In this document: piece after piece, positions 1 to 62,098 of the stretch
Layout: the number at the start of each line of letters is the position of its first letter
Numbering within the stretch: position 1 is the stretch's first letter
NCBI GenBank assembly: GCA_000708835.1
Contig: DF237101.1
Span: forward strand, 62,001-126,000
Direction of reading: 5' to 3'
Source: Klebsormidium nitens
Taxonomy: Eukaryota > Plantae > Klebsormidiophyceae
DNA: 64,000 nt
Position numbers and translations under genes: made by a program
The notes under the pieces: generated by a model
The model's input: the letters and a program-made list of their open reading frames with translations, nothing else
Database searches by the model: none
Told to the model about the DNA's origin: nothing

Positions 1-3000
1 TCAAGAAATGCCTTGCAGACGTAGGAGACACCTCTTCGCGCTTCGACAAGCTCAAGAGGTTCCCTGGGGGGCCGGACCTGTACGCCTATCGCGTTAGCGG
101 CGCACGCGTGTGTCCGTATGGTGTGAGCCACAGCGGCTCGAACAACTTTTGTGTCCTGGTACGTGGTCGCGGTCTTTTCTACAAGTGCAACAGCTCCGAG
201 TGCTGCGACGTTCATCCGCAGCGCAAGATCGGGGAGCTCACGGCACAGGAGAGCATGGTGTGGGGGGCGAGACGGCCTCGGTTGCTGAGGACGACCTGAC
301 CGTGTACGACATGCTGACGAAGGCCTTTGTGGATTACTGGGCGTTTAAAGGAGACATGGGCGGCAGTCGGATTGTTGCGCAGATGTACTCCAGATGCCAC
401 AGGTGAAGCTACCTTTCGTCGTTTCTCATTCAAGCTCCGCAATCTTGGGTGATTGTTTGAAGAGTTTCCAGGCTCTTTCAATACGTGACCTCAAATCCAA
501 GATTGGTCGGGCTGTACTCCTCTCTTGTGAGCGAACTTCGACTTCTTGAGAGCCCTACCGAAATTGCAACTCGAATGGTGGCCGCTGATGCTGTGTCCGA
601 ATGTCCAAGTTTTTGGAGTCAGCAACCTGAGATGACGTCAGCAGTCCCCCCTCGCTCCCTCGGCTCCAGTTGACAGCTTGCGTCGTGTCCGTGTGTCCTT
701 TTGAGCCCGCAATCCCTTTGACGGCGGCAGCGATTGCGCCATAATCTCTTGCGGAACCAATCGTCTGCTTTGCATCTTGTGTCGGAGTGTCCCCATTTTG
801 TGCACATCTCTTTCTTAGCAGCTCGGTGTGACAACCGCAGTCACCTCAACCGATGAGCCTTGCTTCGTTTGCACGTAGATCAATGGGCATCATGGCCCAG
901 TTTTCCCACGATGGAGCTTGACTTTTCGAAGCGGCCAGAGAAGCGACACCTTTCCTCTTCCTTTTAACTGCAGGATCTGGTATGATTCGGAGGGCAAGAC
1001 TTGGTGGATATGGGATGGGAAGCGCTTCAAGCAGGCTGCAATCGAGACGGTCAAATATATCTGCATTCATCAGCTGAGCACCGTTTACGGTCGACTTCGA
1101 GCAGAATTGAAGGAGCAGATAGATGAGACCGTCGACGAGAATGAAAAAAAGTTGCTGAGCAAGCGTCTCGACAAAGTGAGACGCTACTACGACGCTGGTG
1201 AGATTGGCTCGACCTTGACGATCATGGCAGGGGAGATGGCCCTGGATTTGGTTGGGGAGCTGGACGCCAATCCGGACATCCTGAACGTTCAGAACGGGGT
1301 CATCAACCTGCGCACTGGCCAGCTCGACATTCACAGGCCGGAGTACTTGTGCACCAAGCTAGCTGACGTCAACTTCAAGGTGCGCTTCAAGGTTTTGGAT
1401 TGTGATGTCGTATTTGTGCAGCTGTAGAGACACATACCGCCAGAGTGTTGGTTGAATGAAGAGAAGAGGTCACCTCAGAGCTTCTTTGTGCTGATATCAA
1501 CCTCCATGAAACCCCTCGAAATCACATTTACAGATTGAGGGGTTTCTTGTATGAAACCTTGTGGCCTTTGTGAGATGTTGAAGTCTTGAGGCTGCCACCT
1601 CAGGAATTACTTGCACGTCCTAGCTTTGATCATGTCCAAGCAAGCCGAGATGCCATGCAAAGTAGTGTGCAGCAAGGACTTGATGCTTTCTGCGTTGTGG
1701 CCTTGCAAGTAAGCAGATCGTAAGAAGCTCCGGACGACCCGTTCCTTGCAGGGGCTCAGTCATCCGACCCCCACCATCCGCAATTTCCTGGACGACATCT
1801 TCAACGGCGACCAAGCACTCATTGAGTTCATGCGGAGGCTATGGGGGTACGCCATAAACGGGCGGATTAGCGAGGAGATCATTGTGTTCTTACTCGGGAG
1901 CGGCGGTAGGTCGCTCACACCAAAACCGCTCTGATTGCTCTTGTTTGGGCGTCTCTTGGGATCCCCGTTTTCGAAAGCAACCCAATGAGAGAGCAGTCTT
2001 CAGCCATCCCCTCAAGGTCTGCTGCAATTGATAGCGTCCGAGTGTCCGCGCTCCGTGCTTACCTTCTCGAAGGGCCTCCTTTTGGTGACGTCAGCAACCA
2101 TGCCACCCAATAGCTTCTAGGTGTCCGAGTGTCTGAGCGCTCTGCCCGCCTCTTGGAAGATGTTCCTTCCAGATGACGTCATCAACCATCACACCCACAT
2201 TTCCGCTCTTGATAGCTTCCAAATGTCCGAGTATTTTGAGCTCTGTGCCCACTTTTAATAGATAGGGGTTTCAGCAGGCAGTCCGACTACTCAAGCTCTA
2301 CTCGATGTGCAGGGAATGGCAAGGGGGTCTGCAAGGAGATGCTCGAGAACACGCTGGGCGAGTACTACGGCGTGATGGCCAAGGACGCTGTGGTGAAGCC
2401 TCCCGGGCAGCGACCCCCCACCAAGGGTGCTGCCACGGGCTACCTCGCTGAATTAAAGGGCTTCCGGGTTGCTATCACGGACGAAACGAGCCCGGGCGAG
2501 CGCGTTGATCTCGGGCTCGTCCTCATGATGACCGGCGGGGGAAAGCAGAGTTTTCGAAACCTCTTCGAGAAAAACGCTACGATCCGCTTTACCCATACGC
2601 CTTTCATCCAAACCAACTACGATCCTGAGATTCCCCCGACCCTGGCAAAGCAGGCCAACATTGACCGCCGCCTCATCGTGGTTCGATTCCCAAACGAGTA
2701 CGTGTCTGAGAACAAGTTCGACGAAACGAACCCTAGCCATAGGCTCGTGGATGGCAGTCTGAAGCAGCGGATGCAGACGCCAGCGGTCTGTGAAGAGTTC
2801 CTCACGTTCTTGATCCAAGGGAGCTGCGCTTGGTACGAGGACCCCACGGTCTTGCGCCGGCACCCGCCGGCCGTTCAGGCGGCCTCGATGGCGTGGCTGC
2901 AGCGTGGAGACAAGCTGCAGACCTTCCTGCAGTCGGAGCACTGCGTCCTGGATGCAGCTGACACGCCCGAAGCCGCAAAGACCGTCACGTGGGAGGACGA

Positions 3001-3172
3001 ATTCTGGAGACAGTTCCAGTTGTTTGCAGGGCTGAAGATTGCCAAGGAGGAGTTGGCTAGGCAGATGCGGGAGAAAGGGTATGGGAGAACGAAGCGCGCT
3101 GGGCGTTTCACCGGCGATCTCGCTTCCCAGCGGAGCTCTTGCTATGTAGGCTTCAAGTGCGAGTACGATTGA
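1..3172 (+). CDS. Intron-containing primase-associated D5-like SF3 helicase (5'-truncated by the window; one -1 frameshift at the G6 run 262-267)
   Basis: Exons <1-402, 974-1379, 1752-1905, 2313-3172; GT-AG introns 403-973, 1380-1751, 1906-2312 all restore frame. Spliced motifs: CPYGVSHSGSNNF...C, LNVQNGVINLRTG, Walker A LGSGG|NGKG (split by intron 3), Walker B VAITDE, motif C IQTNYDP. Confidence 0.85.
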
Positions 3173-3748
3173 CACGCGTCCACCTTGTAAAAGCCGGTTG
3201 CTGGCCTGTTCCATGAGGCTTGCTTCGACGAGAAGAATTGTACATAGACTGATTGCCCACCTCTTGGAAAAATAGGCCATTAGGAGCGAGCAGAATTGAG
3301 AAGCATTTTCCCGTCACAAAACTAGTCGATTGCTTTCAAGTTTCTTCCACTAGTCTTGCATTGACCATCGGGTAGAACTGTACATAAGTTATTGTTTTCT
3401 GCCGACCTTTCAGAGAGTAGGCTCTAGGTACGGGTTACGATTGAGAGGCCATTCCACGAAAACGAAAAAAACAAATCGCTTGCTGTTCCGTTAGTGGTGC
3501 TTTATTGAGTAGTATTGTATACAAGGTAGATCAGGTGCCCACCTTTGTGGAGTTAGCATAAATGATACTCTAGCTAACAAGTCCTTTGGCTCGTGGCCGT
3601 TTGCGTACATGGTCACATATGTTACCAAGCATGCTGTTGGTACAAAATCCAACCGTATGATGCATGTCACTCATGGAAACCGTAGCAATTAGTGGTTCGA
3701 TACACATGGCATACTACACTATGACGGTGAATTTGGATGAAGGCTGAC

Positions 3749-4270
3749 TGGCTGCTGACGTCATGACAAGGGGACCTTCTGAGAAGGTATGCACAGGTCT
3801 CGGACACTTGGGCGCAAGCTTAGCCACCATCAACTACAGCAGATAGATATTGCTAGTGGAATGGCTGCTGACGTCATGAAAAGAGGACCTTTAGAGAGGG
3901 TATGCACAGGTCTCGGACACTTGGACGCAAGCTTAGCCACCATCAACTACAGCAGATACATATTGCTAGTAGAATGGCTGCTGACGTCATGAAAAGAAGA
4001 CCTTTAGAGAAGGTATGCACAGGTCTCGGACACTTGGACGCAAGCTTAGTCACCATCAACTTCAGCAGATACATATTGCTAGTAGAATGGATGATGACGT
4101 CACGAAAAGGGGACCTTCCGAGAGAGTATGCACAAACCTCGGACACTTGGACGCAAGCTTGCCACCAACAACTACAGTAGACACATATTGTCGGTGGCAT
4201 GGCTGCTGACGTCATCAAAAGGGGAACTTCCGAAAAGGTCTGCGCAATTCTCGGACACTTGGACGCACGC
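3749..4270. repeat. Tandem array, about 5 copies of a 113-bp unit
   Basis: TGACGTCA at 3756, 3869, 3982, 4095 and 4207 (spacing 113, 113, 113, 112). CTCGGACACTTGGRCGC is present in every unit. The repeated MHRSRTLG/MHKPRTLG ORF starts at 113-bp spacing reflect the same array. Confidence 0.95.
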
Positions 4271-4414
4271 GCGTTTCCACGAAATGTCACCGGCCTCTAA
4301 AGGTGAAGCGCGCGGCACGTCTCTCTCGTCTGTTGCTCCTTACAAAAAGTCGCATCGAGGCTTAGAAGGATGCAAGATGGACATTCATAAAGATTCGAGC
4401 GGTCTAAGCACGAG

Positions 4415-5558
4415 ATGGCGGATTCCAACTTCGCTTCGCTGCATCACTCCGTTGTGCCCGAAGCATCTAGACCGCAATGGGAGAGGCGGAACAACCGCTA
4501 CGTTTGCCTTGAAAATCATTCTGATCGACCAGAAGGAGCGTGCAGCAGGGACTTTGCATCGAAGCAAGCTCTCGAGGCCCACCGCGCAACAACCCATTGC
4601 GAGCCAGCAAAGCTGCCCAGCGAGCGTCCCATCTCTAGGTTGCGAGGATTGAGCCCTAATGAAGCCCATCGCATAGCGCAGCGAAGCAATCATGCTGCAG
4701 TTGCGAAGTACCGAGATACTTTGAAAGGAAAGTGGGCCACGTTCAGAGCCCGCCATATGGCAAAGTACCGCAATCTCTCGTTGAAAGCTCTACCGGCGCC
4801 CCCAGAGCCCGAGGCACCGCCCTACATGTTGCCGCCAGTCTCGTGGCTTCTGGCAGACGCTCAGTTCACCCCCAACGAGGTGAAAGCGCGGTTCGCTTCG
4901 GGTAACATCCAACTGAGCCACTCGACCTGGTCCCTGAGGTTTCACCCGGACAAGGTTCAGGTGAGGTGGTCTAAACCCTGCCTTCATAGACCCTTGGCAA
5001 TCAAACAAATGACTAATCATACTGTACATCTTTGCTCAATTATGATGCTTAAAGTGTATATCAAGTCACATTCCTATCATGCGATTCTTTCAATAGTGTA
5101 CATCTTTGCTCATTTGGATGCTTAATAAAAATTGAGAATATCTACAGTTGCCAACAAGTCCTCGTTCTTTGTGATAATAGGAGAGAAGCCCGCACCATTT
5201 GGAAGAGTTTGGACGACACTACATCCACGAGCTACGCAAGCTTGGGAGGGAGAGAGCGGGACCTGCTCACAACGCGATACAAGCTCTCTATGCCACCGAG
5301 CAGTTTGCGCCTCTAAACGAGCGCTTCAAGCAAGGCATCTACGCTAGAAAGGCAGGAGGAAGGCACTGGGAAGCATGGCTCAACGAGGAGGTTGCACTCG
5401 TCACAGATTACCTTGTCCATCTTTTAAGAGTTGTAGAATACGAAAGCCAGGTGCAACGTGCAAAGGAGTTGCTCAACGCTCGAGAGGCTTGGATTGACGA
5501 ACAGCTAAAGAGGCGCTTTCGGAGGTCCAAAGCGTTTTTGAGGCACAACGAGCCGTAG
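4415..5558 (+). CDS. Two-exon protein with an N-terminal C2H2-like zinc finger and a J-domain-like HPD motif
   Basis: CLENHSDRPEGACSRDFASKQALEAHRATTH (C..C..F..L..H..H) and LRFHPDK. Phase-0 intron 4961-5180 (CAG|GTGAGG ... AATAG|GAG) joins ORF 4415 to ORF 5199-5558 in frame. Confidence 0.55.
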
Positions 5559-5636
5559 TACAAAAGGCCTTTACCACTTTCGTCTTCGTAACCAATAGAA
5601 TTATGCTCAGTTACATAATGAACCAAGTAGAATTAA

Positions 5637-6188
5637 ATGGATTCGATTGTTTGTCAACAACCGAAGGACAGAGCTGCAATGATCGAATTGGACAATCAGG
5701 TAAATAAGTCTGTAAGGTTGGCCATCATCCGTTCTTATCAGGAGCTCGGCTGTACCAACACTTATCTTGACATCGGAACTCTAGCAGGCTTGAGATCGTT
5801 GACTCCGCCACACAACCTCGCCCGAATCACTCAGAAGGTCGTGAAGTCATTGAATGCGGAAGGTTTTCATGCCTTATGGGACAAGTCCGGCTTACATAGC
5901 CCCTCGTTATATTCCGTCTATGTCGACTGGGGAAATGCACTGAAGAGCGCAAGAAAGGCAGAGCGTAAGGCCCACTATCGGGCTCGAAATGTCAATGCCA
6001 ATGCCCTAGAACGGAGGATCCTCCCTTCGAACCAGAGAAGTTGCAATCTTGACTGCACGGCAGCTAGAGATGGCGGTGATGACTCAGGAAACGAGAACAT
6101 CGAAGTATACCTGCTCGAGTTGCTCGCAAATCCGGCCAAGACCCGCAATAAGCAGAACAATGAAGAGAGTGTCAGCCCGTCTGGATAA
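5637..6188 (+). CDS. Hypothetical protein (183 aa) of the virus-like element
   Basis: ATG-initiated intronless ORF, co-oriented between element genes; no recognisable motif. Confidence 0.55.
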   Translation: MDSIVCQQPKDRAAMIELDNQVNKSVRLAIIRSYQELGCTNTYLDIGTLAGLRSLTPPHNLARITQKVVKSLNAEGFHALWDKSGLHSPSLYSVYVDWGNALKSARKAERKAHYRARNVNANALERRILPSNQRSCNLDCTAARDGGDDSGNENIEVYLLELLANPAKTRNKQNNEESVSPSG

Positions 6189-6456
6189 AATGAATGGCCA
6201 TTTACTGCTCGAGAGGTGAAATCTGTCCTTCAATATTCACATTATCTAATATAATCACTTTTTCGCGAAAAATCGACTTTTTCAACCGGGTTGGATACCC
6301 GTTCTACAAGCCTTATTTCTGTTGGAAAACAAGCACAAGCTTTATGCAAACTCAGAAAGTGCAGAAAAATGCAACCAGCCTTATTCACTTTTCCAAAAAC
6401 CCTCAGCCGGTTGGCTGGTCGTTATTTTTATCTAGAGTATCTCAGATAAGCAAGGC

Positions 6457-7518
6457 ATGGAAGCTTCCAATGCAGAGGAGCGCGCTATAGCTGTGCCAAG
6501 GACCCATGAGCTCTTACAAGCCGTGTTTGATGATGGTTCCAGAAAGCTTGTAACTGTGAAGCAATACTGTGCCCATGTTGTTCGTCTCTTTAAGGGTATG
6601 TTTGATGAAGAGTCGGAGATATCAGATTTCGAATGGTTGAAAGATGCGCCGAAAGTGATTGCTTACTTTTCCGATGCATATCCAGACAAGCTCTCAATGC
6701 AAGCAACTGGGATCAATCCTCTTCTTGTCCTAGTCAAGAAGGAGTTTCCAAGAGACACAAAATTGTATCACAGTTACTATAGGCGATACCAAGAGGTGCG
6801 CGAACTGATGGAAAAGGCACGCCCTCCGCCACAGGTAATGACAGAAGCCGAAAGTCGCAACTGGAAGACACTCTCTCAGATCGACGACAAACGTGTCCAG
6901 CTGCAGAGACGAGTGAACCGCTCCATACTGCCCAAGGGTCCCGGACAGCTCACAACGGCCGATAAGGTCATCTTGATCCGCTATCTCGTTCTGTGCTTAT
7001 ATTCTCAGAGCCCCTCCCTGCGTAACGACTATTCAAACCTCCCCGTGATCCGTTTCGAGGATATGCACACCCCTTCCGCAAAAACGTTGACGTCTGGAAA
7101 TGGCAACTATCTCTTGGAGTACGCGAAGGGGCAATTCCGAATGGTCTTGAAAGATTTCAAAACGGCCAAGACGTATGGGGAGCAGGCAATCGACTTACCG
7201 ACACGAACTTGCAACGTGATTGCGGAGACTCTTGAGGTGTTTCCTCGAAAGTACCTTCTAAGTCGTATGCGGACGCCGGATGAGCCAATGAGCCGCAATT
7301 ACCTCACAAAGTTCTGCTGCTCCATTTTCGACGACGCGAATGTCGGTACGTGCTTGCTGCGCAAGATATGCGTCTCGAATGCAATGAAGGATGCGCCCAG
7401 CATCCTAGAGCGAGAAGTTCTTGCCAAACAGATGCTTCACTCTGCCTCGGTGCAAATGCGGACTTATGAGAAGCATTATAGGCCAGATGGCACGAACATT
7501 CAGTTCGATGACGCTTAA
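6457..7518 (+). CDS. Tyrosine recombinase/integrase (OLV11/Polinton-like-virus type)
   Basis: Catalytic residues in order: PSLRNDY (R), DFKTAKTYG (K), TCLLRKICVS (xxxR, His replaced), LAKQMLHSASVQMRTYEK (H...Y). 353 aa, intronless. Confidence 0.85.
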   Translation: MEASNAEERAIAVPRTHELLQAVFDDGSRKLVTVKQYCAHVVRLFKGMFDEESEISDFEWLKDAPKVIAYFSDAYPDKLSMQATGINPLLVLVKKEFPRDTKLYHSYYRRYQEVRELMEKARPPPQVMTEAESRNWKTLSQIDDKRVQLQRRVNRSILPKGPGQLTTADKVILIRYLVLCLYSQSPSLRNDYSNLPVIRFEDMHTPSAKTLTSGNGNYLLEYAKGQFRMVLKDFKTAKTYGEQAIDLPTRTCNVIAETLEVFPRKYLLSRMRTPDEPMSRNYLTKFCCSIFDDANVGTCLLRKICVSNAMKDAPSILEREVLAKQMLHSASVQMRTYEKHYRPDGTNIQFDDA

Positions 7519-7576
7519 GTCTCAATGTATCGTTTGTCATTGAGGTTTGAGCGAGTTTGCAGCACTTGGCAGAAAT

Positions 7577-7912
7577 CTAGCGGACCTCGGCTGCTATGTA
7601 TGGGAGGAGGTTCCTTGAAAGGCTGTCACCAATGTCGAATCGTGAACTTGTGGCCGATGGTATTGAAAAACCCGCCTTTTGGAGCCTCTCGAGTGTCTGC
7701 TTGTGAAACTTCTTTGTGTTTCCTGAAAGGTAGCGTGCATAGGCCTTTTGGAGCAGGATCCGCTCCTGATTGCGAGCATAATAAGCCCGCATGTGCTCTT
7801 TGTGCTTTTCAGGATGTTGTTGCTGATAACGTCGATGATTCTGACAGGCACGGCAGGGGCAGGGCCGGGTGTCGTCAACAAAGTCATCAGTGGCTCCAAA
7901 GGCCACGGACAT
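7577..7912 (-). CDS. Small basic helical protein (111 aa), virus-like
   Basis: ATG at 7912; HRRYQQQHPEKHKEHMRAYYARNQERILLQKAYARY is a basic/Tyr helix of a kind common in small ORFs of large DNA viruses; divergent from the primase gene. Confidence 0.55.
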   Translation of the reverse strand: MSVAFGATDDFVDDTRPCPCRACQNHRRYQQQHPEKHKEHMRAYYARNQERILLQKAYARYLSGNTKKFHKQTLERLQKAGFSIPSATSSRFDIGDSLSRNLLPYIAAEVR

Positions 7913-8019
7913 TTGTCCTCCTTATTACTGCGAAAAAAAAGATCGATGCTCGACCGCAATCGAAACTGTGAGTGCGTTCAGATCCCACCGATTTTTTCTT
8001 AGTGGTGACTATATAAATC

Positions 8020-10874
8020 ATGGCTCCGCTAGGTGTCGAGCAAGCTGTCGCTGCCCCTACGGCCTCGGCCTCCGAGTCGACCAAGGCCTCAGGGCCACCA
8101 AGCATCAAAGACGTGATCATGGACCTCGCTGGAAGAGGGCTTTATGCCATCCCCGTGCGAATGTTTTGGGATTCCAACAAGGGCAAGAAGGACGCGGACT
8201 TCCCATACAAATGGAGTAATATGGTTGATCGCAACACCTGGAACGACAAGATTGATGCGGCCCTCTCAGAGGTGTCGAATGCCAACGGTGTTGCTATCCT
8301 CACGGGTGCTAGCAGATTGCTGGTGGTGGATGTGGATAATTCTAGCACTCCCAAAAAACGTGCAGGGATAGAGCTCTGGGACCGCTTGATTGCCACTCAC
8401 GGCGAGCCGTCGACCCTCAAGGCAAAGTCTGGATCGGGTGGGCTGCACTTCTACTTTCGAATCAACAGCCTCGGACTCAATCGCACGAGAAACTTTGCTG
8501 GCTTGAAGTCGGGCGGGACCCTTTACGGGATTGACTCTCGTGCAACAGGCGGCATCATTTTTGCACATCCAGCAGCATACGTGGATGGTGAGGGCATTCA
8601 CCGCCAGTACGAATGGTTCAACGGTCCACCGAGCTATAAAGCTTGCTCTGAGATTCCAGAGTGGCTCGTGCGGATCATCAATGACGGGGCGACAGCGGCG
8701 TTGATGAGATTCAATCGATGGTTGTCAGCGCCGCGCCACATGAGATCACGGAAGCATGCGCATTGGTTGACTCTAAGATGGATATAGCTCATGGCCATTG
8801 CAATGATCAACGCTCGGCTTCCAACAGAGCGTCCAATGACAGAAGTCTTTTACTGAAAGAGTTCTCGGACATGCTAAGAGAGAACGCACGTGATTCTACA
8901 AGCACTTATGCGAGCACGCTGCCACATGGGCTTTATGGCACTTATTACTGCTTTAGGACGAAAGGGCCAAGGACTTGCTACTTTGGCCATCGTCATTCAG
9001 GAAGCAATAACTTCAACCTGCTTAAACGTGGACGCAACGTATACTATCGCTGCCATGGTCAAGAATGCTCTCACAAGCGTGCAGAGAAGCTAGGTGAGTT
9101 AAGCCTCAAAGCTGCATTGCAAGACGCGACGTCTCAAAGAGTTCACCATTCCGATGATATGCGCACCATCACACAATATACGGAGGGGAGTGAGGAGGTT
9201 CAACGGCTTCTACTCAAGTTTATGGCCGAGCACGCCGCCCCTCAAGCTTATTTTAACCTTGGGCGGCTCTTTGGTTATTTTTATCAGATCGAGGGAAGGA
9301 TGCTCACAACGAGGGACACTTCGGAGAAGAAGAAAGATGCTTTGTACTTCTATGTTTGGAACGGCGCTTCTTGGATTCAGGACGCAGCGAACATGGTCGC
9401 TAGCGTCTTCACGTTGCAGATGGGGGTCCTCCTCGCTTGGTATGAGGGCAAACGGGAGAAGTGCTTGGAGGAGCTCCGCTCGCAACATCCCGATCTGCAA
9501 GGGCTCGGGGAAGGCGAAGGGCCTCAATCCAGATCCAAACAGCAAGCGGAACTGATCAAGGCTGCCCAACAGGGATGTCTTAATGAGAGAGATAGGAGAT
9601 TGCCGAGCTTTGGGAGGATCAATGTGCAAGACATTGGTGATGTGAGGAAGTGTCTGCCTGCTGTTGTCAACGAGCTCTTCGTAGAGGATCTAATGGACTT
9701 GTTCGACCAAGACGACCACGTTGCCAACGCTCCAAACGGTCTCATAGACCTCCGGACCGGGAACCTCTCAGGCCATCATCCACAGGATCTTTGCAGCAAC
9801 ACCACAAGCACGTACATCCGAGGTGCCTCAGGAGCCCTGACGGCGCGCTTCCGCAGTTTCTTGATGGATGTTCTGCCACCTGGCAACATCGATTGGCTGC
9901 AGTTGTTCCTTGGATATTGCCTCACTGGCGAGACGAGCGAAGAGCTCTTTGTCATCATGAACGGCGAGGGTGCAAACGGAAAGAGCAGACTCGCGGCCGC
10001 CATACGTCGGGCCTTTGGAAGCTACAGCACGGCAGGCAACAAAGCAATCTTCATCAAGCCTACTTTTAAGGCTAATGCATCCTCTGCTTCGACCCATCTC
10101 ATGCACATCAAGTCCAAGCGCTTCGTCACCAACGAGGAGTCGGAGAAGGACGATCATCTGAACGGAGCATTTCTAAAGGAGGCAGCCTCTGGCAACCCTA
10201 TCGAAGCACGTGAGCTTTTCTGCAAACCACAGGAGTACATCCCGCGATATAAGCTCTGCCTCTTTACTAATTATAGGCCGCACTTTCCAAGCGATGACGC
10301 TGCATTGCTCCGCAGGATCGTACTGATCATGTTCGATTTCATTTACAAAGCTCCGGACGAGCTGGACGTGAACAACAAGAGGCACAAACCGATGGACCTC
10401 ACGCTGAAATCGTATTTCGAATCTGCGGAAGGTGCTGCAGACGTTCTGGACTTTTGTGTGGAGGGCGCGACAATGTACTATGCAAGGAAGGAGCAATCTC
10501 CGGAATCGAAGATTCTCTCGCCCATCCCGCATGCTTTCCGTGCTGCAGCGCAGGAGTATGCAGCCGAGAATGACCACCTCCAATGCTTCATCGACGAGTC
10601 ATGTGTGAAGGGCGACTCTTTCGGCGTCACCAAGGTCGACTTCGTGAACAAGTTTTTGGAATTTTTGTATGCAGGCGGGCACGACACAAGCGTGGCTGGG
10701 GACGGTTTGGCAAGGGCCATGAACGTGAAGGGGTACACGAGCACTTCTAAAGACGGGAAGAAGAACAGAATGATCCGAATGCTAGACAGTAGAGAAAGGA
10801 AAACCGGCTTCTTCGGAATCCGGCTCAAGACTCCTGAAGAAATGGAGGCGGAATTCAATGCAAGTGAGGACTGA
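8020..10874 (+). CDS. Bifunctional Prim-Pol primase fused to a D5-like SF3 helicase (one -1 frameshift at the G4 run 8686-8689)
   Basis: ORF 8020-8787 has Prim-Pol motifs (NGVAILTG, LLVVDVD, SGSGGLHFYF, GIDSRATGG). The second frame opens at 8685 and has CYFGHRHSGSNNF, NAPNGLIDLRTG, Walker A GEGANGKS, Walker B FVTNEE and motif C LFTNYRP. No introns. Confidence 0.9.
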
Positions 10875-11047
10875 GGGGACGTGATACATGTGATACGCAA
10901 TCTGAGGCCTCTCAGCAAGCTTGTATCAGTGCCTGGAAGGCGCTAGAATTGTGGTCATTTGGGCCAGTTTCGACGACACAACGACTCGTAGCAGTGTCTC
11001 ACAGCGCTGGAAATGCAGAGATGGCATCTTGTTGTAGCGCTTATGGT

Positions 11048-11161
11048 TGATGCAATTGATGCAAGATACATCATAATGATATATGATATTCTTTTGAATA
11101 AGAAGCTTCTTCCTCCATTATATATTCTGCTCTGATAAAAATAGCTGCATCAATTGCATCA
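11048..11161. repeat. Perfect 16-bp inverted repeat flanking an 82-nt AT-rich spacer
   Basis: TGATGCAATTGATGCA (11048-11063) and TGCATCAATTGCATCA (11146-11161). Confidence 0.9.
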
Positions 11162-11245
11162 TGCGCATCACACCCATTTTGCGTCTCTTTGTAAAAATCG
11201 TGGTTTTTCGGGCCAGAGCAGCACAACTATTGCATGGAACCAAGC

Positions 11246-14200
11246 GGGCCGTGCAACAATGAGCCCCTTTGAGGAGCCCATCCCCACATTGCAGGACGTG
11301 ATACCGTCTTTGTTTCTAGTATCGAATCTGTATCAGCTCACAGACAAGTCTCTTTAGCACAAAAAGTCAGCCTTGCAACAGCGCCCTCGCAATGGCGGCC
11401 GACCACGCCGCCGCCGCAATGGCAATGCCACGCTTTGCGTTGTCCACCCTCTTCAGCGTCGTGTTGAAACCACCAAGCAGCAAAGGTAGGATCACCATCA
11501 GGCTCTCCAACCCAGAGTACCAACCCAGAGACCGGAAGCCCTTCAGAAAGGAGTTGACCGACTCCACTGCCGACGTGTTGACCCAATGCAACGCGTCATA
11601 GGCGTCAGCGGAATTCGACGGCCCGCACTTGTGCACCTCCTGTCCGGCCTTCGAGAAGTGAAACCTGCACACAAGACAGAGTGTACATAGGAGGTCATGC
11701 GGCGCAACAAGCCTCGTTTTGCCTGCAGACATTGTAGTTTGAAAGTTGATGTATACGTTTTTTAAAGCAATCCACCAATTCCCATTGCTGGATCAGCATG
11801 TATGTACCCACAACACCTCCAGTTCTATGAACGGGAGACGGAATAGAGCTAAGCACAACACACGTTGCCAAATGAGCTCGGATGTACACTCACCTGTCGA
11901 CCACGAAGCGCACGTCCCTGAAGAACGCCGGGGCTCGGCGCATCGAGTAGTTGCGCAGCGCACATGCGTTGTCATGGACCAAGACCTCCGGCAAGTCCTC
12001 TCGTCTCAGCCGAGTGTAGAGCACCGTAAATGCGTCCCGAAGGCTCTCTCCGCGCAGCATGATGTGAAAACCGTAGATGACTCGGTGCGAGCAGCAAAAA
12101 ACAAAGGCCCCTCGACACCTCTTCGGCCGCTTGCTCTTGCTCCCTTTCTTTCCCGACAGCTTTCCGGCCCCCTTCACTAGCCCCGGCACGTGCTCGGCGT
12201 CCCATTCGGTCATCGACTTCCCCGTCGCGCACTTGAACTCCTCCGACGTTCGGCTGCGGCCGTCAGGATGCTCGAAATTGCTGTAGTATGGCAAGCCCCG
12301 TTTCTGCTCCCACCCTGGGAGGGAGTAGCACGCCAATGTATCTTGCTCTTCTCGAAAGCTGTGCCCAACCGGCAGCGGCTGCAGATCCCCCCCGTTCTCA
12401 TCCTTCCCCAGCCGCTCTCTCAAGAGCAGCCGCTCGGCTGCGCTCATCCGACCCCACTGCTCAGAGCTCGGCTTCAATTTCTCGACCCCTCGGAGCAGCT
12501 CGTTTGCCAAACCTCGAGCATCGTCCAGCTGCCGCCGCTCCTCGATTGACAGAGGCCTCGCTTTCGCCTCTCGCAGCAGAGTGACCGCACGGTCAAACGG
12601 CTGGATGGCTTCATGAATCCATCCCAAACGCCCCTCGCCCTCGAATCCAGCTGCGCCCCTCGAAAGAAGGGCCAGCAAGTACAGCTCGTGCAGAGTTCGG
12701 AAGAAGAAGGTGGGAAAGCTGGAGCCTCCATAAGCGTCCAAGAGGCGCCGAAGGATGGGCGCATCCCTCGCAAGGTCCCGACGGTCCTCGAGGGTCGCCT
12801 CTCCTCCTAACAAGAGCCTTTTGACCACGTGCAGCGCGCCACTACCAATCAGGTCCTCGTCCGCGTCGTGAGCTCCGAGCGAATAGAGCAGCTCGGTCCA
12901 TTCCCCGACCCAGCTCTCCCAAAGGTTTGGGTTCCTACCCCGCCGTTGAAAGTCGGCTTGGATGCCCGTGAGGAGCTCGAAAACGGCCAGGTTGCGGTCG
13001 CGGACCATGGTCTGCTGCTCCACCAAGAGGCGCCTCCTGCCATCCTCCGGAAGCGGGCCCTCGGCCTCCCCTGGTCCGAATCGCTTCACGATCCGAGCGT
13101 CCTCATGCGCCAACCCGTCCAGAAGACCCTCGAACTCCACCCTTGAGAGGCGCTGGCCGAGCTTCTCGTCTTTCGGCCGGTTTTGAGAGAGGCGCGCAAT
13201 CGCCTCTCGCAGCTCCGGCTGGAGCAGCAGCTTGCGCTTTAGGCCGCCCCCTTCGAGACCGGCGCCGCAGTAGTCGCGGCCAGAGATTGAGCGCTTCTCG
13301 AAAAGCTGCCCAGCCGAGTCTCTGCTTGGATGGGTGAAGGTGCGCCGCGCGTCAAGGGTCGAGCTTCCAAGGCCGCCCGGCTTTCTCGCGCCGTCGGAGC
13401 TTGCTAGCCCCACGATGCCATCGCAGAGTAATACCTGAACGGGGCGAATGTTCAACTTCGTTCAATGTTCATCGTTCAATGTACCCTTGATGCCATTGTT
13501 CGAACATTCTAGCTATCCTCGGATGTACACTAAGCTCTCCGTGCTTGTTGTTCTGAGAGATGGTCAGTGTCAGTGGCAGTGCACAACTTCGTCGTTCACA
13601 AAATCAAACAGACCGCAAAGACACGAGGGCCATAAGATGTCTTTCTTCTTTCTCTCGTCTCTCGCTTGAGCAGATTACCGATGCTACTCACCCTTGGATG
13701 CGGTCCGCAGATGGAGCAGCAGTCTCGGATGCCAAGCCCAACTAGCTTGAAGAAGTCGAGGCTCGCTCTTCTCCAAGTCTCCTCGCTCGGCACGACGGCA
13801 TCAGGAGAGCGCTGGAAGGCCGCGTGGTCGCGTGCAAGCTCGGCCTTGAAAGAGTGCCCGTGCTGCATCCCTCGCAGGAGCAGCTGGAGGCTCTCCTGGA
13901 CGAAGATCGTTCTGCGGTTCCAGGCGTACAGGCCCAAGTGCTCGCCGTCAAAGTGGATGGCGTGCGCCTCGTCTTGGCACTGGCAGTGATAGACGCGTGT
14001 TCGCACCCCCTGGCTCCAAGACGCTGCAGTGACGGAGGCCTCTACCCACGCCTCCACCCAAGAACCGCCGCACCGAGGAGGGCTCAAGGGTCAGGGAGCG
14101 CTCAAGAGACCCTTCTCCGAGAGCTCCTCAAAGTGGCAATCTCGCAGCTTGCTCACGCGAACGGGGCGCTCAAGCGAGGTCACCAACGGATCATGGAAGT

Positions 14201-17126
14201 TGAGGGCATCGCTCAGCCTCGCAAGCTTGGGCTTTGTGACTTGGGTTGCCTCCGTATTGAGCAGCTGGACAGGGGCGCAAACCGTTGAGCTCTCCCCGTG
14301 CTGGCAGCCACCGTCCGCCAAGGAGGCCAAGCTGCATCTCGTGCACGCGTCTACCCAGCCCCGGATCGCCTCCTTGCCCCTCGCGTCCGCTGGCGGCCTC
14401 CCTTCCCAACCGACTGGCGCAGACGGCTGCACACTCTCTCTATGCGCTGCCCATGCCGTCTTGCTGCGCCTCGCTCTCTTTCGCGGAGGCACGTGCCCTC
14501 TAGAAGCCCGCTTCCTCTCTTGATCGACCCCCCCACTCTCTCCTTCGATGGCGCACGCGCCGGCATCCCGAACAACCGCTCATGCTGGCGGCAGAAGCAC
14601 GACTCGCCCGAGCACTTTGCCGGCTCATGTGGACGCTTCTCGAGTAAGCCAATAAGGTACTCCTCCTCCTCCCTCAGCGCGCTTTCGCCTTCCTGCCCCT
14701 CCGACAAACCTACCCCCGGGCTCTGAGGCATCACTCCATCCCATCGCTCGACCCAGCACAAAGCAGCCATCGACAGCGGTTGAGATGGCTCCATGATTAT
14801 CTGGTTGGCCACCGGGATGCCGCCGGCCTCGCTGAGCGCCCTTCTTGCCGCGGCTATGTGTGAGCATTCCGTCATTGAAGGGCAGCCATCATTCTTGCCT
14901 TGGCACCAGAGCCAAACCCCCTTCTTCTTGTCAAAGCCTTGGAAGACCATGCGCCTTCGCGGGCCGAGGGCCCCTTGGACATTCTCGGCAACTGCAAGGC
15001 AGCTCCCTCGATCGTCCGTAGCTACCCGCTCAACGCGCGCCCCTCTTCCAAGCATCTCGCGCGTGGGAAGCTCAGAGGTTGGTGCCCAGCTCTCGCTAAG
15101 GGCCGCTAGCGCCAACTTGTGAACGCAGGCGGCGTCCTCTGTAAGCCGCCCCCTGTTGCAGGTGCAGCAGAGCTTCCCCAACGTGTTCCACCAGACCGTC
15201 ACTGGTAGCCCATTGACTTTGTCCGGCTTCCCCAACGCCTTTGGTCGACCCTCCCCATTGTGGTCCCAAGGGCTAAGATACAATCTAAGCGGCCGCGGCG
15301 TTTCTGAGTCTGTGGGCAAGAACATGTGGACTGGTGCCTCCGGCGAGACCATCATTCGAAGATAGCGCACAGCTTGCGCCTTGATGCTCGTCGTTGGAGC
15401 GACCTCCTGCAGAGATGCAAGAAGGCAGCACGTCTCTCATTCTGACCTCTCTTTCATTCGGCAGCATTAGCAAGATAGAGCCTTCAGAATCCCAAGTCAT
15501 AAATAGATCAGCAACCTTGTAGCCCTCCACTTCACAACCACTCTCGAGCAACTTCCGGAGGACTGCATACTCACGGGATGTGCGTTGCCGTCTAGTCGCC
15601 CTCATGACATAGCAATGATGGCAGCGGGCACGAGCAGAGCAGAAGGGGCTTGCTACAGACATCTGATTTCTTCTGATGTTTGTAGAGAAATAATGGAGCT
15701 CACCTCAGAACTCTCTGCTGCCTCGCTCAGGCTAGCTCTCGGGCGCACTCCCTTTGCGATGCCGCGATCGCCTATCTGCGTTGCTGCCGTAGAAACGTGC
15801 CGCTCTCCTGGCATCGTCCGAGCGTTCTCTGACGCAGAAAGCTGAGCAGCTCGTCGCCGAGCTCCAATTCCTGCCTCCACGCCCCCTCTTTCGCCTCCCG
15901 CCGCAGAACAACTGCGTTCTGCAGGTCGCCCCTCTTGCTGCCGAGAATCATCATCGACAAACCATCAGCGCTTTCAGCGAGCTTGCCGACCATGTTGTTG
16001 ATGCAAGTCAGGCACACAATCTGTCTGCATTGCTTGCCCTTCGGGACTGCTGCGCTGACAACATAGCCCATCAGAATGCCCCGATCGCTCTTTCGGAATG
16101 CCAGCTTTAATTGCCCCTCCTTGGTCTTGGCCCAAATCTGGTGCAAACAAGTGAGGCACCGCACTGCAAAGCGCTCCTTGCAAGTCTGTACGTCAACCCT
16201 AATATCACCGCAAGCGATCCCCCTCACGCTACCTAGCTCTATGTGCTCGAGCCCACTGCTAAAATGCTGAGGACTAGGTCGAGACTCCATGGTTACCACC
16301 CTTTATTGCCCTACTCTTGGGGGGCGGCGCTCTCTAAGCCCCGCGGGCCTCCCCTCCTACCTGCTACGCCCCGGTCCGGTTTAACCGGCCCTCGAACTTG
16401 CCATTTTAGCCTACCACCTTCTCTCTAAGTTACTGAGCCCCGACCCTGGGCATTTGTGCCCGGTCGCTTGTCCCTAAGTTCCGACCGGTTCGACGCCGCG
16501 GTGGTCGTACTTTTTCAGAACCTTCCAGGGGGGGTGCTGAGGTGGCGTCCTCTCCGGTACATGCAACCTTCTTTACCGTCACGGCCGAATCCGGCACGGT
16601 TGTTAACGATCCATCCACCGTCCGATCTCTCACGATCGATCGTGGCCCTCACTTTTAGTCTCAACTTCATTTGGTACCCCCCCCAGCCTGGTATGCACCG
16701 GCGCTTCCTTTCGTCAATGAGAAACGGAAGTGGCCGTCATCACGCCTTCTTGGATATTCAGCCCATGTGCGCACTCTGGAACTGCCGACAGGTGGCCGCC
16801 GCTACCCTCGGCAAGCGCTCCAGGTGGCGCATTTCCTCACCGGGTTTTTTCGAGCCAAATGGAAGCAATTTTAGCATTGGTGATCACCGGGGCGTGCTTT
16901 TCGAAGCAGTCTTGTCAAATGAGCAGCGACGACGCCAGGCGGTGGGTTGAACGGGACGGCGACAAGACAGTCCGTTGCTTTTGAAAAGAGTCGCTTCTTT
17001 GAGCAATTTCTGGGCAGAAGAAAGGGACTTTAATACGCCCTCCCGTACTCGATGGGCGCGGTATTGCGTAACCCGGTTGGAATTTCACCAGGGTGATTGA
17101 GAAGAGTCCGGAAGAGGGCACGGCCC
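11246..17126 (-). mobile_element. KDZ-type DNA transposon with 9-bp TIRs and a 4-bp TSD
   Basis: GGGCCGTGC at 11246-11254 and GCACGGCCC at 17118-17126, flanked by AAGC at 11242-11245 and 17127-17130. The interval encloses the KDZ transposase, whose stop lies about 120 bp from the left end. Confidence 0.7.
11367..15407 (-). pseudogene. KDZ transposase with SWIM and Cys-cluster domains; disrupted
   Basis: SWIM-like CTCNRG...CVHKL and WCQG...CSHI motifs. CCSICGPHPR|VLLCDG is joined across intron 13435-13691. Also VHDNAC, VVDR|FHFS...H.C across intron 11665-11893, and NTSAVESVNS (D-D-E triad). There is an in-frame TGA at 14091-14093 and a frameshift at the C7 run 14528-14534. Upstream coding segments (15.4-16.3 kb) are not resolved. 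Confidence 0.85.
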
Positions 17127-29041: not shown

Positions 29042-29465
29042 CAGTCAGTACGCACGCTCTTGGACCCGCCAGAAAAAGTTCGGAANNNNNNNNNNNNNNN
29101 NNNNNNNNNNNNNNNNNNNNNNNNNNNNNNNNNNNNNNNNNNNNNNNNNNNNNNNNNNNNNNNNNNNNNNNNNNNNNNNNNNNNNNNNNNNNNNNNNNNN
29201 NNNNNNNNNNNNNNNNNNNNNNNNNNNNNNNNNNNNNNNNNNNNNNNNNNNNNNNNNNNNNNNNNNNNNNNNNNNNNNNNNNNNNNNNNNNNNNNNNNNN
29301 NNNNNNNNNNNNNNNNNAATGCGGACCCTAAAGTTTGCTGGCGACGCCTCAGGTTCTTAGAGTGAGGCGTCGCCGCGTTTCCGAACTTTTGTCTTAACAC
29401 AGCCTGCCAACTGGGCACAGAAAAGGACGGTGGTGTCAAAGCCCCAGAAGCGTGCGTACTGACTG
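29042..29465 (-). mobile_element. CAGT-terminal MITE, copy 1 (spans the N gap), TSD TCCA
   Basis: TIR CAGTCAGTACGCACGCT...AGCGTGCGTACTGACTG; TCCA at 29038-29041 and 29466-29469; reverse complement of copy 2. Confidence 0.85.
29086..29317. other. Assembly gap (232 N)
   Basis: Run of N. Confidence 1.
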
Positions 29466-29492
29466 TCCACCGGCCTGGAACATTATAAACAC

Positions 29493-29776
29493 CAGTCAGT
29501 ACGCACGCTTCTGGGGCTTTGACATCACCGTCCTTTTCTGTGCCCAGTTGGCAGGCTGTGTTAAGACAAAAGTTCGGGAACGCGGCGACGCCCTCACTTT
29601 AATTACCTGAGGGCGTCGTCAGCAAACTTTAGGGTCCGCATTTGCGGTTGCCAAAGAGCATTTAATGCTAACCACATCGGACGATCCAAAGGGTCAAAGT
29701 TGGGGGCTGCCCCCATCGATCGACGGTTCCGAACTTTTTCTGGCGGGTCCAATGGCAAGAGCGTGCGTACTGACTG
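29493..29776 (+). mobile_element. CAGT-terminal MITE, copy 2 (284 bp), TSD ACAC
   Basis: 17-bp TIRs; ACAC at 29489-29492 and 29777-29780; internal hairpin CGACGCCCTCA...TGAGGGCGTCG. Confidence 0.9.
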
Positions 29777-29896: not shown

Positions 29897-30081
29897 TAAC
29901 TCTCGTGTGACCTAAGAGGCGTGTGACCTAAGATAGGCACCCGGGGGACGGGTGGGGTTGGTATGGTGGTTAGGGTGGGTTGGGGTGCGGAGCGGGTGAT
30001 TATTTGTGTTAGGTTTTTAGTTTGAAGTGCCCGGGTAACTCGTATCTTAGGTCACACGCCCGTTAGGTCACACGAGAGTTA
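29897..30081 (+). mobile_element. Telomere-like-core MITE, copy A
   Basis: 39-nt arms (37/39 complementary; GTGTGACCTAA twice in each arm) around the core GGGACGGGTGGGGTTGG...GGTTAGGGTGGG...GGTGCGGAGCGGGTG...GTTAGGTTTTTAG. Confidence 0.85.
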
Positions 30082-30395
30082 CCGGTATAGCCTCATGCAG
30101 GTCAGCTGAGAAAGTGAGAGGTCGAGCAGAGCAGGTAGAGCTAGGCGTTTCCAATGCCCTTCAATTCAAGTTCACGAGCTCTTGAAGGCCCCACACAAGC
30201 GATCTCAGACTGGAGGATTGGCACAACAGTTTTGCCACATTGCAGCGCAGATTAACTCGTTCTCCGGTGAATTCAAGGAGCACCACCACCACCACCTTCA
30301 ATTGACATCAGCGCCACCACTTTCCTCATCTCTCCATATCAAGAAAGTTGCATCACAGCATTGGTGCATTCAATGTCAAATGCTGACACTTAGAA

Positions 30396-34752: not shown

Positions 34753-36437
34753 GGAGAGTACGAACCGTAGGCAGTTTACAAATCTTCGTAAGCTATCTTG
34801 GCAGCTTGACCTGGCAGCGGCGCTCAAGCTCCGAATATTGATCACCCGGAAGCAATGGGTCGACATACTATTTTCAGTCAATCGAAATATGACTCTATTG
34901 ACCCGGATCCGGACTCCGACAAGGGGAAGGTCCTTGCTTCTCTGATTTACAGCCAGTCAGTTGTGTGTAACAAGATCTTGGTATCTAGCTCGACCAGGAG
35001 ATTGACTCCCTGGCACCAATCACTAGCGCACGGACACCCACTTTACATGCTCAACTACAATGTGCCGTTTAGTATTCAAGTCCGACTTCATGTTATTGCT
35101 TGGGAGGGGAAAAGCGGCGAGGCGCGACGGATGCCACGCCGCGGGCCATTCGCGCCTGGGCTGCGCGGCGGCCAATTGTAAGTAATGGAATTCTGTGCGT
35201 GCTGAACTGCATACCACATGGCACTGTTCAATTAAGATTGGAGTCACGTACGTCAGCTACAGTCCGGAAAATTGATCGTCGGTATGATCTTTATGGTTAA
35301 GCTCACAGTGAGCTCAGAGTTTCATTGAGTTTCCGCTGGCCCATGCAGCGGTATTCGGGTATCAAGTTGTTACCGTCTCCAACATAACGCTTGCATGAAA
35401 CGATATTGGCACTTTACTTGGCATGGTACATAGGCACTTGAATGTGCGAGTTTTACGTGCGCGGGCCACAATCGATCACTGTAACACGTCCAAATGAAGC
35501 CGGACTCACCATGCTGCCATGAATTAGTATACATTCTTGTAAGTATGGCACGATTGCATGGCGGCTGCTTGGTGAGTAGGAGCCATGAGCCGGATTGAAT
35601 GCTAGCTCGATTCACTATCGACAGCCCTTGACTGATTCCTGTTCCTCATGAATGCTATTAGCAAGACGTCTCGATTTTCAGCAGCGCGCGGTATACATCG
35701 AAATTACATTCGATGCAGCCATGCAGTTGATCTGGAAATAGGTACTGTCGAGGCGTTATTCTTCAGGGCTTTGTAGTACGCGGCCGTGGTGAGTCCTGGA
35801 CCAGTCTCATGGAACCTCGCGATTTGCGCCAGGCATCCGAGATGTTCATCAGGCCTGGCAATTTCGATTGTAAGTCTACATTGTTAATTGTTTGACCAAA
35901 TATCAGTCCTCTTTAGTACTTATCCGCACAGATTCGAAACTGAAACCTCGTTCATTGAACTGGTGACCTGAGCTCACATAACAATACGCGCTCTCGCTAT
36001 TCCTGCTTGACTTTGAATTTTTTGACCCCGCAAGCAGCCCCCGCTGTGCAACTTGCGGCGCGCAGTGTGATCCAGTCTGTGCATGCAGCTATCCTCAGTA
36101 CTGTCGCGCTCTTCGCTTTACCTCGCTTCACTTGCTTAACCTAATGACCGAGCTACTTGATTGATCTACGGTTCACATGGTACATTATGGACATACCGAC
36201 AGATGCTTAAAGTTTGACTCTAATGCAAGCGCCCCTCATCCAAGCAAGACTGCTGTTTTGACGGATTTTGGTTGACGCGGGTTGGCACTTTTTCTACACC
36301 CAGCGGACATTTGGACGCGCCTTCTCAGCAGCAGCCGTCGTCCGCAACAGAGAGCGACGCGTTGCCACTGGCGACCTAGTAACTGGAGTCCGACTTTGAC
36401 GGTCCCCTCGCAATACCGGTAACGCCCATTTTACATG

Positions 36438-36586
36438 AGAGCCATTGCACTTAGGATCCAAGCTACCCGGGCGGACAAACTAAATTCCCTAACCAACAGC
36501 ATCACCCGCTCCGCACCCGAACCCATTCTAACCACCAAACTAACACTACCCGTCTCCCGGGCGCCAATCTTGAGTGAAATGGCTCT
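36438..36586 (-). mobile_element. Telomere-like-core MITE, copy B
   Basis: Reverse core (CCCTAACC...CACCCGCTCCGCACCCGAACCC...CTACCCGTCTCCC) flanked by CCCGGG and 19-nt arms (16/19 complementary). Confidence 0.75.
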
Positions 36587-36699
36587 TAATCGAAATGGGA
36601 GTTACCAGAATTGCCTCGCAGACCAGGTAAAGGGGCGACCAAGGACTGCACTTGGAGGGGCAAAGCGTCGCCGAAGCCACGTGGGCGCCCACGCCCTCA

Positions 36700-61907: not shown

Positions 61908-62098
61908 ATGACACGACATTTGAGGAATAGTAAGCTTTTGGAATACCGTAGTAAGCTCAAACCAAACACTAAAATCCTAACCTATAAAAAGTACCTGCTC
62001 CGCACCCAAACCCACCCTAACCCCCAAACTAACCCTATCCGTCCCAGGCTGGTGAGCTTTCTATTCCTAAAGCTTACTGTTCCTACATAAAGTGTCAT
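61908..62098 (-). mobile_element. Telomere-like-core MITE, copy E
   Basis: Reverse core (CCTAACC...CCTGCTCCGCACCCAAACCCACCCTAACC...CCCTATCCGTCCC); arms 61923-61945 / 62062-62084 (21/23 complementary) plus outer ATGACAC/GTGTCAT. Confidence 0.8.

What the first reader, a model, noticed from the sequence alone, without database searches (positions are those of the whole stretch)
1..11161. Integrated tyrosine-recombinase + dual primase-helicase element in an algal genome
Seen: a tyrosine recombinase (R-K-R-H-Y), a Prim-Pol/D5 helicase fusion, a second D5 helicase, three small ORFs, a tandem array and an inverted repeat near the right end, packed in 11 kb beside host genes. Established: OLV11-type YRs and primase-SF3 helicases are hallmarks of Polinton-like viruses and virophages. 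Inference: this is either a partly domesticated PLV or a capsid-less self-replicating YR element. Two helicases could also mean two adjacent copies of different age, with the array marking their junction.
Basis: partly seen in the sequence, partly recalled or inferred. Interest (0 to 1): 0.8.

Follow-up and report, generated by a model that had tools for sequence, protein, structure and literature searches.

The report
Repeated recombinase-helicase cassette in algal genome
In the alga Klebsormidium, a 6.5-kb block with a virus-type DNA recombinase and a broken virus-type DNA-copying gene recurs in diverged copies and has no shell gene in the sequence at hand, so it is likely a mobile element that would cut itself out, copy itself and re-insert without a virus shell of its own; the second helicase beside it belongs to a separate, spliced gene family.

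Summary
The features are real, but they are not one 11-kb element. The window is Klebsormidium nitens. Three units lie side by side. (1) 1-4270: the 3' part of a Prim-Pol/D5 gene with three RNA-confirmed introns, a frameshift and its own 113-bp repeat; only 27% identical to the other helicase. (2) About 4400-10874: small ORFs, an intact tyrosine recombinase (R-K-R-H-Y) and a Prim-Pol/D5 gene broken by a real frameshift. (3) 11209-16290: a spliced, likely KDZ transposase gene, not a host gene. Unit 2 is a family: 13 K. nitens primase-helicase models on 13 scaffolds, a second locus with the same YR-to-helicase order at 30% YR identity, and 4 of 27 YR relatives sharing an exact contig length with a helicase relative. 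No capsid or packaging gene was found in unit 2 or to its right. Upstream DNA, ends, circles and empty sites were untestable, and this genome has seven published capsid loci. Best reading: a capsid-less recombinase-plus-replicase element (0.5); rival: decayed Polinton-like virus end module (0.3). An earlier scan note reported KDZ/primase-helicase pairs elsewhere in this genome.

The parts
1..3172 (+). 3' part of a spliced Prim-Pol/zinc-domain/D5 SF3 helicase gene (family 2); starts upstream of the window; introns 403-973, 1380-1751, 1906-2312; frameshift at the G run near 261-267 gives a stop at 297-299
   Evidence: GT..AG joints in RNA-type contigs of runs X5 and X9 (two studies), none in DNA runs X1, X2; spliced part from 266 is open for 518 aa, Walker A GSGGNGK, 64% to P0213; paralogues P0212, P0213 carry an N-terminal Prim-Pol; frame change against P0213
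3749..4267 (.). 113-bp tandem array, 4.6 copies; inverted partial copies in introns of the left gene (630-646, 2034-2106, 2172-2199); inferred to belong to the left unit, possibly an origin
   Evidence: motif search 8 matches against 0.23 expected, 5 in the array, 2 in left-gene introns, 1 at 12252 with 3 mismatches, none in 4400-10900
4415..5558 (+). ORFs 4415-5125 and 5199-5558, predicted to be one gene (307 aa) through an in-frame GT..AG intron 4961-5180: weak C2H2 zinc finger plus HPD motif (J-domain-like); splicing not shown
   Evidence: Pfam zf-C2H2_6 E 0.024-0.07, under cut-off; Atlas first hit a DnaJ cluster at 0.77, lead only; a diverged DNA contig bridges 4965 to 5376
5637..6188 (+). 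183-aa ORF of no known family
   Evidence: no usable Pfam or Atlas hit; a diverged DNA contig carries both 5225-5437 and 5637-5786
6457..7518 (+). intact tyrosine recombinase, 353 aa, of the algal-virus/virophage (OLV11-like) kind
   Evidence: catalytic columns; 27 relatives at 48-77%; 2060 at E<=0.001 by profile; Cre, XerA, lambda integrase head the fold searches; best viral folds in Tetraselmis, Pyramimonas, Aureococcus, Heterosigma viruses, weaker in a virophage
7577..7912 (-). 111-aa basic ORF between YR and Prim-Pol, conserved in other copies
   Evidence: relative P0031 matches 7693-8703 continuously; a diverged DNA contig bridges 7873 to 8044
8020..10874 (+). Prim-Pol / zinc-domain / D5 SF3 primase-helicase gene (family 1), no intron needed, broken by a frameshift at 8686-8689
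   Evidence: Walker A GEGANGKS; ASFV C962R is the only PDB sequence match; lesion present in DNA contigs
11048..11161 (.). 16-bp perfect inverted repeat with 82-base spacer between the converging helicase and KDZ genes; role as an element end not shown
11209..16290 (-). spliced gene, likely a KDZ transposase with CxC4 domain, converging on the family-1 helicase; treated as a neighbouring transposon
   Evidence: Pfam KDZ E 0.045, CxC4 E 0.0013; three minus-strand GT..AG joints in run X5 only; many diverged DNA contigs lie on it

Best explanation
The stretch 4400-10874 is one copy of a repeated Klebsormidium cassette that pairs a tyrosine recombinase with a Prim-Pol/D5 primase-helicase and three small genes, and it is likely a capsid-less mobile element. 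Shown: the gene content, the repeated gene order, an intact catalytic set in the YR, a frameshift in this copy's primase-helicase. Inferred from what these families do: the YR would recombine the two ends and release a circle; the D5 hexamer would open an origin on the circle and the Prim-Pol domain would prime synthesis, with host polymerase likely finishing it; the YR would then re-insert copies, so the element gains copy number without a polymerase or capsid of its own. This copy would need an intact primase-helicase from another copy. Spread between cells, if any, would need the shell of a resident Polinton-like or giant virus. The left helicase with its array is a separate unit of a sister subfamily that has taken on spliceosomal introns; the KDZ gene is a third unit; the locus is a nest of mobile elements.
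For: 13 of 38 helicase hits are K. nitens models with 13 different scaffold lengths, one being this locus. A second K. nitens model, P0044, holds YR, Prim-Pol and D5 in the same order with the YR 30% and the helicase about 56% identical; its YR falls in another subfamily, with P0069, so the pairing has outlasted deep divergence. 4 of 27 YR hits share their exact longest-contig length with one of 29 family-1 helicase hits, against 0.011 ties expected (indirect). Diverged DNA contigs of one genome run bridge 4965-5376, 5437-5637 and 7873-8044, so the small ORFs keep their order in other copies. The cassette is filled by its five or six genes; of 17 open stretches of 200 codons or more in the window only the D5 frame has a Walker A motif, and the 10 scanned outside the cassette gave host-type, KDZ or no Pfam families. 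Helicase models (13) outnumber published capsid loci (7). Families 1 and 2 are each one side of a 100/100 branch.
Against: Nothing upstream of the window could be read, so a capsid module left of the spliced gene is not excluded. K. nitens has seven contigs with PLV-type capsid genes (PMC10120064 supplement) and I could not map them against the YR/helicase loci. YR plus primase-helicase beside inverted repeats is the described end module of PLVs (PMC11296320). No ends were defined: the longest shared word between the likely end regions is a 10-base direct repeat (4369, 11058), at chance level. Divergent capsids would escape Pfam. Only one other K. nitens YR was returned by name (P0020), and only P0044 shows both genes in one record. 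No close relative was found in viral, metagenome or prokaryote contigs, so no free form was seen.
Confidence: 0.5

Rival explanations
1. The cassette is the surviving end module (YR, primase-helicase, inverted repeat) of a Polinton-like virus whose capsid module was deleted or lies upstream, separated by the inserted spliced-helicase unit.
For: OLV11-like YR and primase-S3H are PLV/virophage genes (PMC4642659); the order YR, primase-helicase, inverted repeat matches the end module in PMC11296320; seven capsid loci in this genome; this copy is damaged; a distant relative of the YR sits in a viral contig that I read as a virophage (L002).
Against: More helicase loci than capsid loci; no capsid or ATPase frame in or right of the cassette; the same compact order at a deeply diverged locus; a predicted intron in one cassette gene and shown introns in the sister family, whereas PLV genes are described as intronless.
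Confidence: 0.3
2. The real element is larger: the KDZ transposase and a primase-helicase converge on a repeat region and move together, with the YR cassette either as its cargo or nested between the spliced helicase plus array and the KDZ gene.
Against: None of the 15 joints shown (of 37) links helicase or array to KDZ in another contig; sequence look-ups found no look-alike to that note; KDZ copies are many, so neighbouring by chance in an element nest is easy; none of the 213 fetched proteins holds a KDZ piece.
Confidence: 0.12
3. These are scattered fragments of giant-virus (NCLDV) insertions, with no mobility of their own.
For: K. nitens carries several NCLDV inserts (PMC5294986); the best viral folds for the YR and the helicase are in giant viruses.
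Against: No other giant-virus gene was recognised in the window; identity to giant-virus proteins is 20% or less; the N-terminus is a PF09250 Prim-Pol with weak phage matches; that paper's table lists no D5 for this species as I read the row.
Confidence: 0.08

Closest known systems
End module of Polinton-like viruses (YR, primase-helicase, inverted repeats; Barth et al. 2024, PMC11296320, abstract and sections 7, 8 read) and OLV11-bearing PLVs such as PgVV (Yutin et al. 2015, PMC4642659, passages read)
   Same: YR next to a primase-SF3 helicase, an inverted repeat beyond the helicase, algal host, YR of the algal-virus kind
   Different: no capsid, penton or A32 ATPase in the cassette; about 6.5 kb against 14-40 kb; PF09250 Prim-Pol primase; no terminal inverted repeats found; sister family with spliceosomal introns
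P4-like and PICI/SaPI phage satellites (recalled, not from a call)
   Same: integrase plus primase-helicase plus a few small genes, no capsid; predicted excise, replicate, re-insert cycle
   Different: eukaryotic nuclear genome; helper virus not shown; YR not close to phage integrases (Pfam PF00589 hit only in 3 of 12 distant relatives, under cut-off)
Crypton YR DNA transposons (named in PMC12220804 passage; other details recalled)
   Same: eukaryotic DNA element moved by a tyrosine recombinase through a predicted circle
   Different: Cryptons are not known to me to carry a replicase; this YR has no Crypton-type Pfam hit and its relatives are viral; Ndc10 is the top VIA-align row (Z 9.3, rmsd 13.9, 223 aligned) but at 8% identity
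Transpovirons and Tlr1 (Yutin et al. 2013, PMC3671162, passages read)
   Same: small capsid-less elements with a helicase, tied to the virophage/PLV gene network
   Different: they use a superfamily 1 helicase; transpovirons are linear plasmids of mimiviruses; no YR

Membership tests
Tyrosine recombinase superfamily | catalytic R-K-(H)-R-H/W-Y set | tested here: met
   R189, K235, H328 invariant; R302, Y337 at 90% or more in 24 sequences; the H of H-x-x-R is L
Tyrosine recombinase superfamily | core-binding plus catalytic integrase fold | tested here: met
   model pLDDT 66.8; Cre and XerA fill the top Foldseek ranks at E 0.014-0.08; integrase-family chains fill nearly all of the first 18 VIA-align rows
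OLV11-like YR family | homology to OLV11 / PgVV ORF3 | tested here: inconclusive
   no OLV11 reference was on hand; fold hits in Aureococcus virus (a carrier named in PMC4642659) and Qinghai Lake virophage; profile match to L002 YR prob 43.5, E 0.00024
Polinton-like virus | double jelly-roll major capsid protein | tested here: inconclusive
   no free long frame in the cassette; none recognised to the right; upstream unreadable; no capsid profile on hand
Polinton-like virus | minor capsid (penton) | not testable with these tools
   no profile; small ORFs have no family
Polinton-like virus | A32 packaging ATPase | tested here: inconclusive
   1 of 17 long open stretches has a Walker A motif and it is the D5; upstream unreadable
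Polinton-like virus | terminal inverted repeats around 14-40 kb | tested here: inconclusive
   longest inverted word between 4151-4420 and 10871-11340 is 9 bases; true ends unknown
Polinton-like virus | integrase and replicase (YR, primase-S3H) as accessory module | tested here: met
   PMC4642659 and PMC10120064 passages
Crypton | Crypton-type YR as the only enzyme | tested here: not met
   cassette also encodes a primase-helicase; no Pfam family on the YR
Transpoviron / Tlr1 | superfamily 1 helicase | tested here: not met
   helicase is D5/SF3
Satellite of a helper virus (P4/PICI-like way of life) | packaging into a helper's capsid | not testable with these tools
   no virion or infection data
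Autonomous mobile element | defined ends, empty sites, circles | not testable with these tools

The most novel reading that the evidence does not exclude
Klebsormidium carries an undescribed class of eukaryotic self-amplifying DNA elements made of only a tyrosine recombinase, a Prim-Pol/D5 replicase and a few small genes: a nuclear counterpart of P4/PICI phage satellites, with an old sister lineage that has gained spliceosomal introns and is still transcribed, and which may ride the capsids of the resident Polinton-like or giant viruses.
Probability: 0.3. Interest if true: 0.85.

Novelty: new variant of a known kind. Interest (0 to 1): 0.6.

Why it matters
Surveys of integrated Polinton-like viruses start from the capsid gene (PMC10120064 passages), so elements with only a recombinase and a primase-helicase would be missed. 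If this family is capsid-less, it fills the gap between YR transposons and Polinton-like viruses, tests the idea that the PLV end module can live alone, and does so in a culturable streptophyte alga where circles and empty sites can be checked by PCR. The intact YR is also a new eukaryotic recombinase to assay. If it is only a decayed PLV end, it is an ordinary member of a known kind and the spliced sister gene is the main curiosity.

Tried and rejected
No whole genome was held, and the look-up of accession numbers for ten relatives could not be made, so co-location rests on gene models, contig joints and equal contig lengths. Scans for related loci found no close relative: viral contigs, metagenome contigs, prokaryote genomes; one scan with distant relative P0066 gave 2 loci at 24%; two alignments were too diverse to scan with. 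No listed holder of 1500-11400 is on record as RNA. In the two RNA-type runs laid, the cassette has almost no cover (one 206-base contig at 5440-5645); contigs show presence only, so this is not used as evidence of silence, and contig depth is not used to rank expression. At 80% likeness only the window's own contig appears to lie on 10902-11275, which holds the inverted repeat; a hole proves nothing. Rfam: 0 matches in 1-17000. Atlas: no usable hit for ORF 5637. CpG ratios do not separate the units. Rejected: assembly error as the cause of either frameshift (DNA contig for the right one, RNA-type contig 1-381 with 0 gaps for the left one; same sample as the assembly is possible for the DNA runs); recent duplication of one helicase; one programmed frameshift shared by the left family (P0212 leaves the frame at the same spot but into another frame). 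My first exon join was one base off and was redone. The helicase tree used 23 rows (P0065 dropped, no Walker A match; short or partial models left out) and has few, long-branched outgroups and no PLV reference. Not in print as far as ten searches reach: no paper held both Klebsormidium and Prim-Pol, or Klebsormidium, KDZ and transposon; I saw only listings for most results; subscription journals, Repbase and bioRxiv supplements (the Gezel-14T preprint's may list Klebsormidium PLVs) were out of reach; file 2 of PMC10120064 is cut when stored.
Full report
Host and layout. The best hit of the D5 frame is K. nitens model KFL_001520110 (P0028), identical to the window in all three matched pieces; it is this locus, wrongly fused from part of the YR, the Prim-Pol and the D5. 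No whole genome was held. The first 16.3 kb hold, in order: a D5-type helicase gene running in from the left edge, a 113-bp array, three small ORFs, the YR, a small reverse ORF, a Prim-Pol/D5 gene, a 16-bp inverted repeat, and a minus-strand gene with weak KDZ and CxC4 matches.

The recombinase. The 353-aa ORF has no Pfam family, but 27 relatives at 48-77% and 2060 at E<=0.001 by profile. In 24 aligned sequences R189, K235 and H328 are invariant and R302 and Y337 nearly so. Its model (pLDDT 66.8) finds Cre, Xer and lambda integrase in both PDB searches, each row weak but the list consistent, and, at E down to 1.6e-07, proteins of algal giant viruses, with virophage proteins lower. PMC4642659 (passages) places OLV11-like YRs in PLVs, Organic Lake virophages and Aureococcus virus. 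I had no OLV11 reference, so the label is consistent but not tested directly.

The right primase-helicase. Prim-Pol (8020-8787) and D5 (8718-10874) are in different frames; relatives P0029, P0030 and P0031 read through, and the break maps to a G run at 8686-8689. A 4176-base DNA contig over 7296-11471 agrees letter for letter in runs X1 and X2, one sample. So this copy is broken. The family is large: 13 of 38 hits are K. nitens models with 13 different scaffold lengths. Structural neighbours are generic D5 helicases at 20% identity or less; the Prim-Pol domain has weak phage matches (14 records).

The left helicase is another thing. Contigs of two RNA-type runs from two studies skip 403-973, 1380-1751 and 1906-2312, all GT..AG, and the two DNA runs do not. 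The spliced part from base 266 is open for 518 aa, 64% identical to P0213 and 27% to the right helicase. Two K. nitens paralogues carry an N-terminal Prim-Pol, so the gene begins upstream of the window. It has its own frameshift at a G run near 261-267, present in an RNA-type contig. In a 23-row tree the two families are each one side of a 100/100 branch and together form a 99/98 branch against six or seven distant rows, with long-branch warnings. The array motif occurs five times in the array and twice, inverted, in this gene's introns, and not in the cassette (8 matches, 0.23 expected). I therefore assign the array to the left unit.

Is YR plus helicase a repeated unit? Three lines say yes. 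Model P0044 (KFL_003670050) holds a YR, a Prim-Pol and a D5 in the same order, the YR only 30% identical and in a different subfamily. Four of 27 YR hits share an exact longest-contig length with one of 29 family-1 helicase hits (6906, 11532, 47072, 77129), against 0.011 expected; this is indirect, as the accession look-up could not be made. Of 175 contigs of one genome run laid at 80% likeness, 104 are under 90% alike, and shown joints bridge ORF 4415 to ORF 5199, ORF 5199 to ORF 5637, and the reverse ORF to the Prim-Pol start (15 of 37 joints shown). Against: only one other K. nitens YR came back by name, and no ends were found.

Capsid or not. The cassette has no room for a capsid module, and of 17 open stretches of 200 codons or more in the window only the D5 has a Walker A motif; the ten scanned outside the cassette gave host-type, KDZ or no families. 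But upstream DNA is unread, and the supplement of PMC10120064 lists seven K. nitens contigs with capsid genes of cluster MMPC_86 (rows read; I take this to be the PgVV group from the main text, without checking the column). Thirteen helicase models against seven capsid loci means some copies lack a capsid, not that the family never has one. PMC11296320 (sections 7 and 8) describes exactly YR, primase-helicase and inverted repeats as a PLV end module. This is the main rival.

The right neighbour. Run X5 shows three minus-strand GT..AG joints in 11209-16216, and many diverged DNA contigs lie on it. It is likely a KDZ transposase gene, not a host gene.

Mechanism. By the established chemistry of tyrosine recombinases (circular donors, PMC12220804 passage) and of primase-SF3 helicases (my own knowledge), I infer excision to a circle, origin opening and priming by the primase-helicase, and re-insertion by the YR. 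None of these steps was observed. This copy would depend on a primase-helicase supplied by another copy.

Verdict. Real, multi-copy and not found in ten literature searches (mostly listings seen; passages of 10.1101/2022.07.28.501842, 10.1101/2022.05.02.489867, PMC5294986 and PMC3671162 read; supplements of PMC12220804 had no Klebsormidium row). It is not a single dual-helicase element. It works, most likely, like a PLV end module living alone; membership of the PLVs is undecided. Novelty: new variant of a known kind. Interest 0.6.

Noticed in passing
window 261-267 and 8686-8689: Both helicase genes are broken at a G run followed by CGA, at different places in the protein; paralogue model P0212 leaves the frame at the same spot as the left gene but into another frame. 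Looks like a slippage hot spot; the left gene is still spliced despite an early stop upstream of three introns.
   Followed up: partly
window 4415-5558 (+): Predicted two-exon gene with a C2H2 finger and an HPD (J-domain-like) motif inside the cassette; a J domain beside an SF3 helicase recalls polyomavirus large T (recalled).
   Followed up: partly
window 12118: DNA contigs of other KDZ copies break off here into an unrelated sequence in both DNA runs, possibly another insertion in a paralogue.
   Followed up: no
window 29318-29642, 29897-30081, 37275-37407: Long hairpin-type inverted repeats, MITE-like; an assembly gap of N lies at 29086-29317.
   Followed up: no
window 29913-30091, 36410-36588, 37573-37686, 45918-46073, 61917-62077: A dispersed repeat of about 100-180 bases, 73-86% alike, five copies in both orientations.
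   Followed up: no
window 4369 and 11058: A 10-base direct repeat joins the region just before ORF 4415 and the left arm of the inverted repeat; chance level, but a candidate recombination core.
   Followed up: partly
L002:8799-11453: Viral contig in which a distant YR is fused to a long C-terminal part, near ORFs that look like virophage capsid and protease genes (my reading, not scanned).
   Followed up: partly
window 39349-41088 (-) and 31108-32418 (+): Host genes: a hybrid histidine kinase exon and a HECT_2 exon.
   Followed up: no
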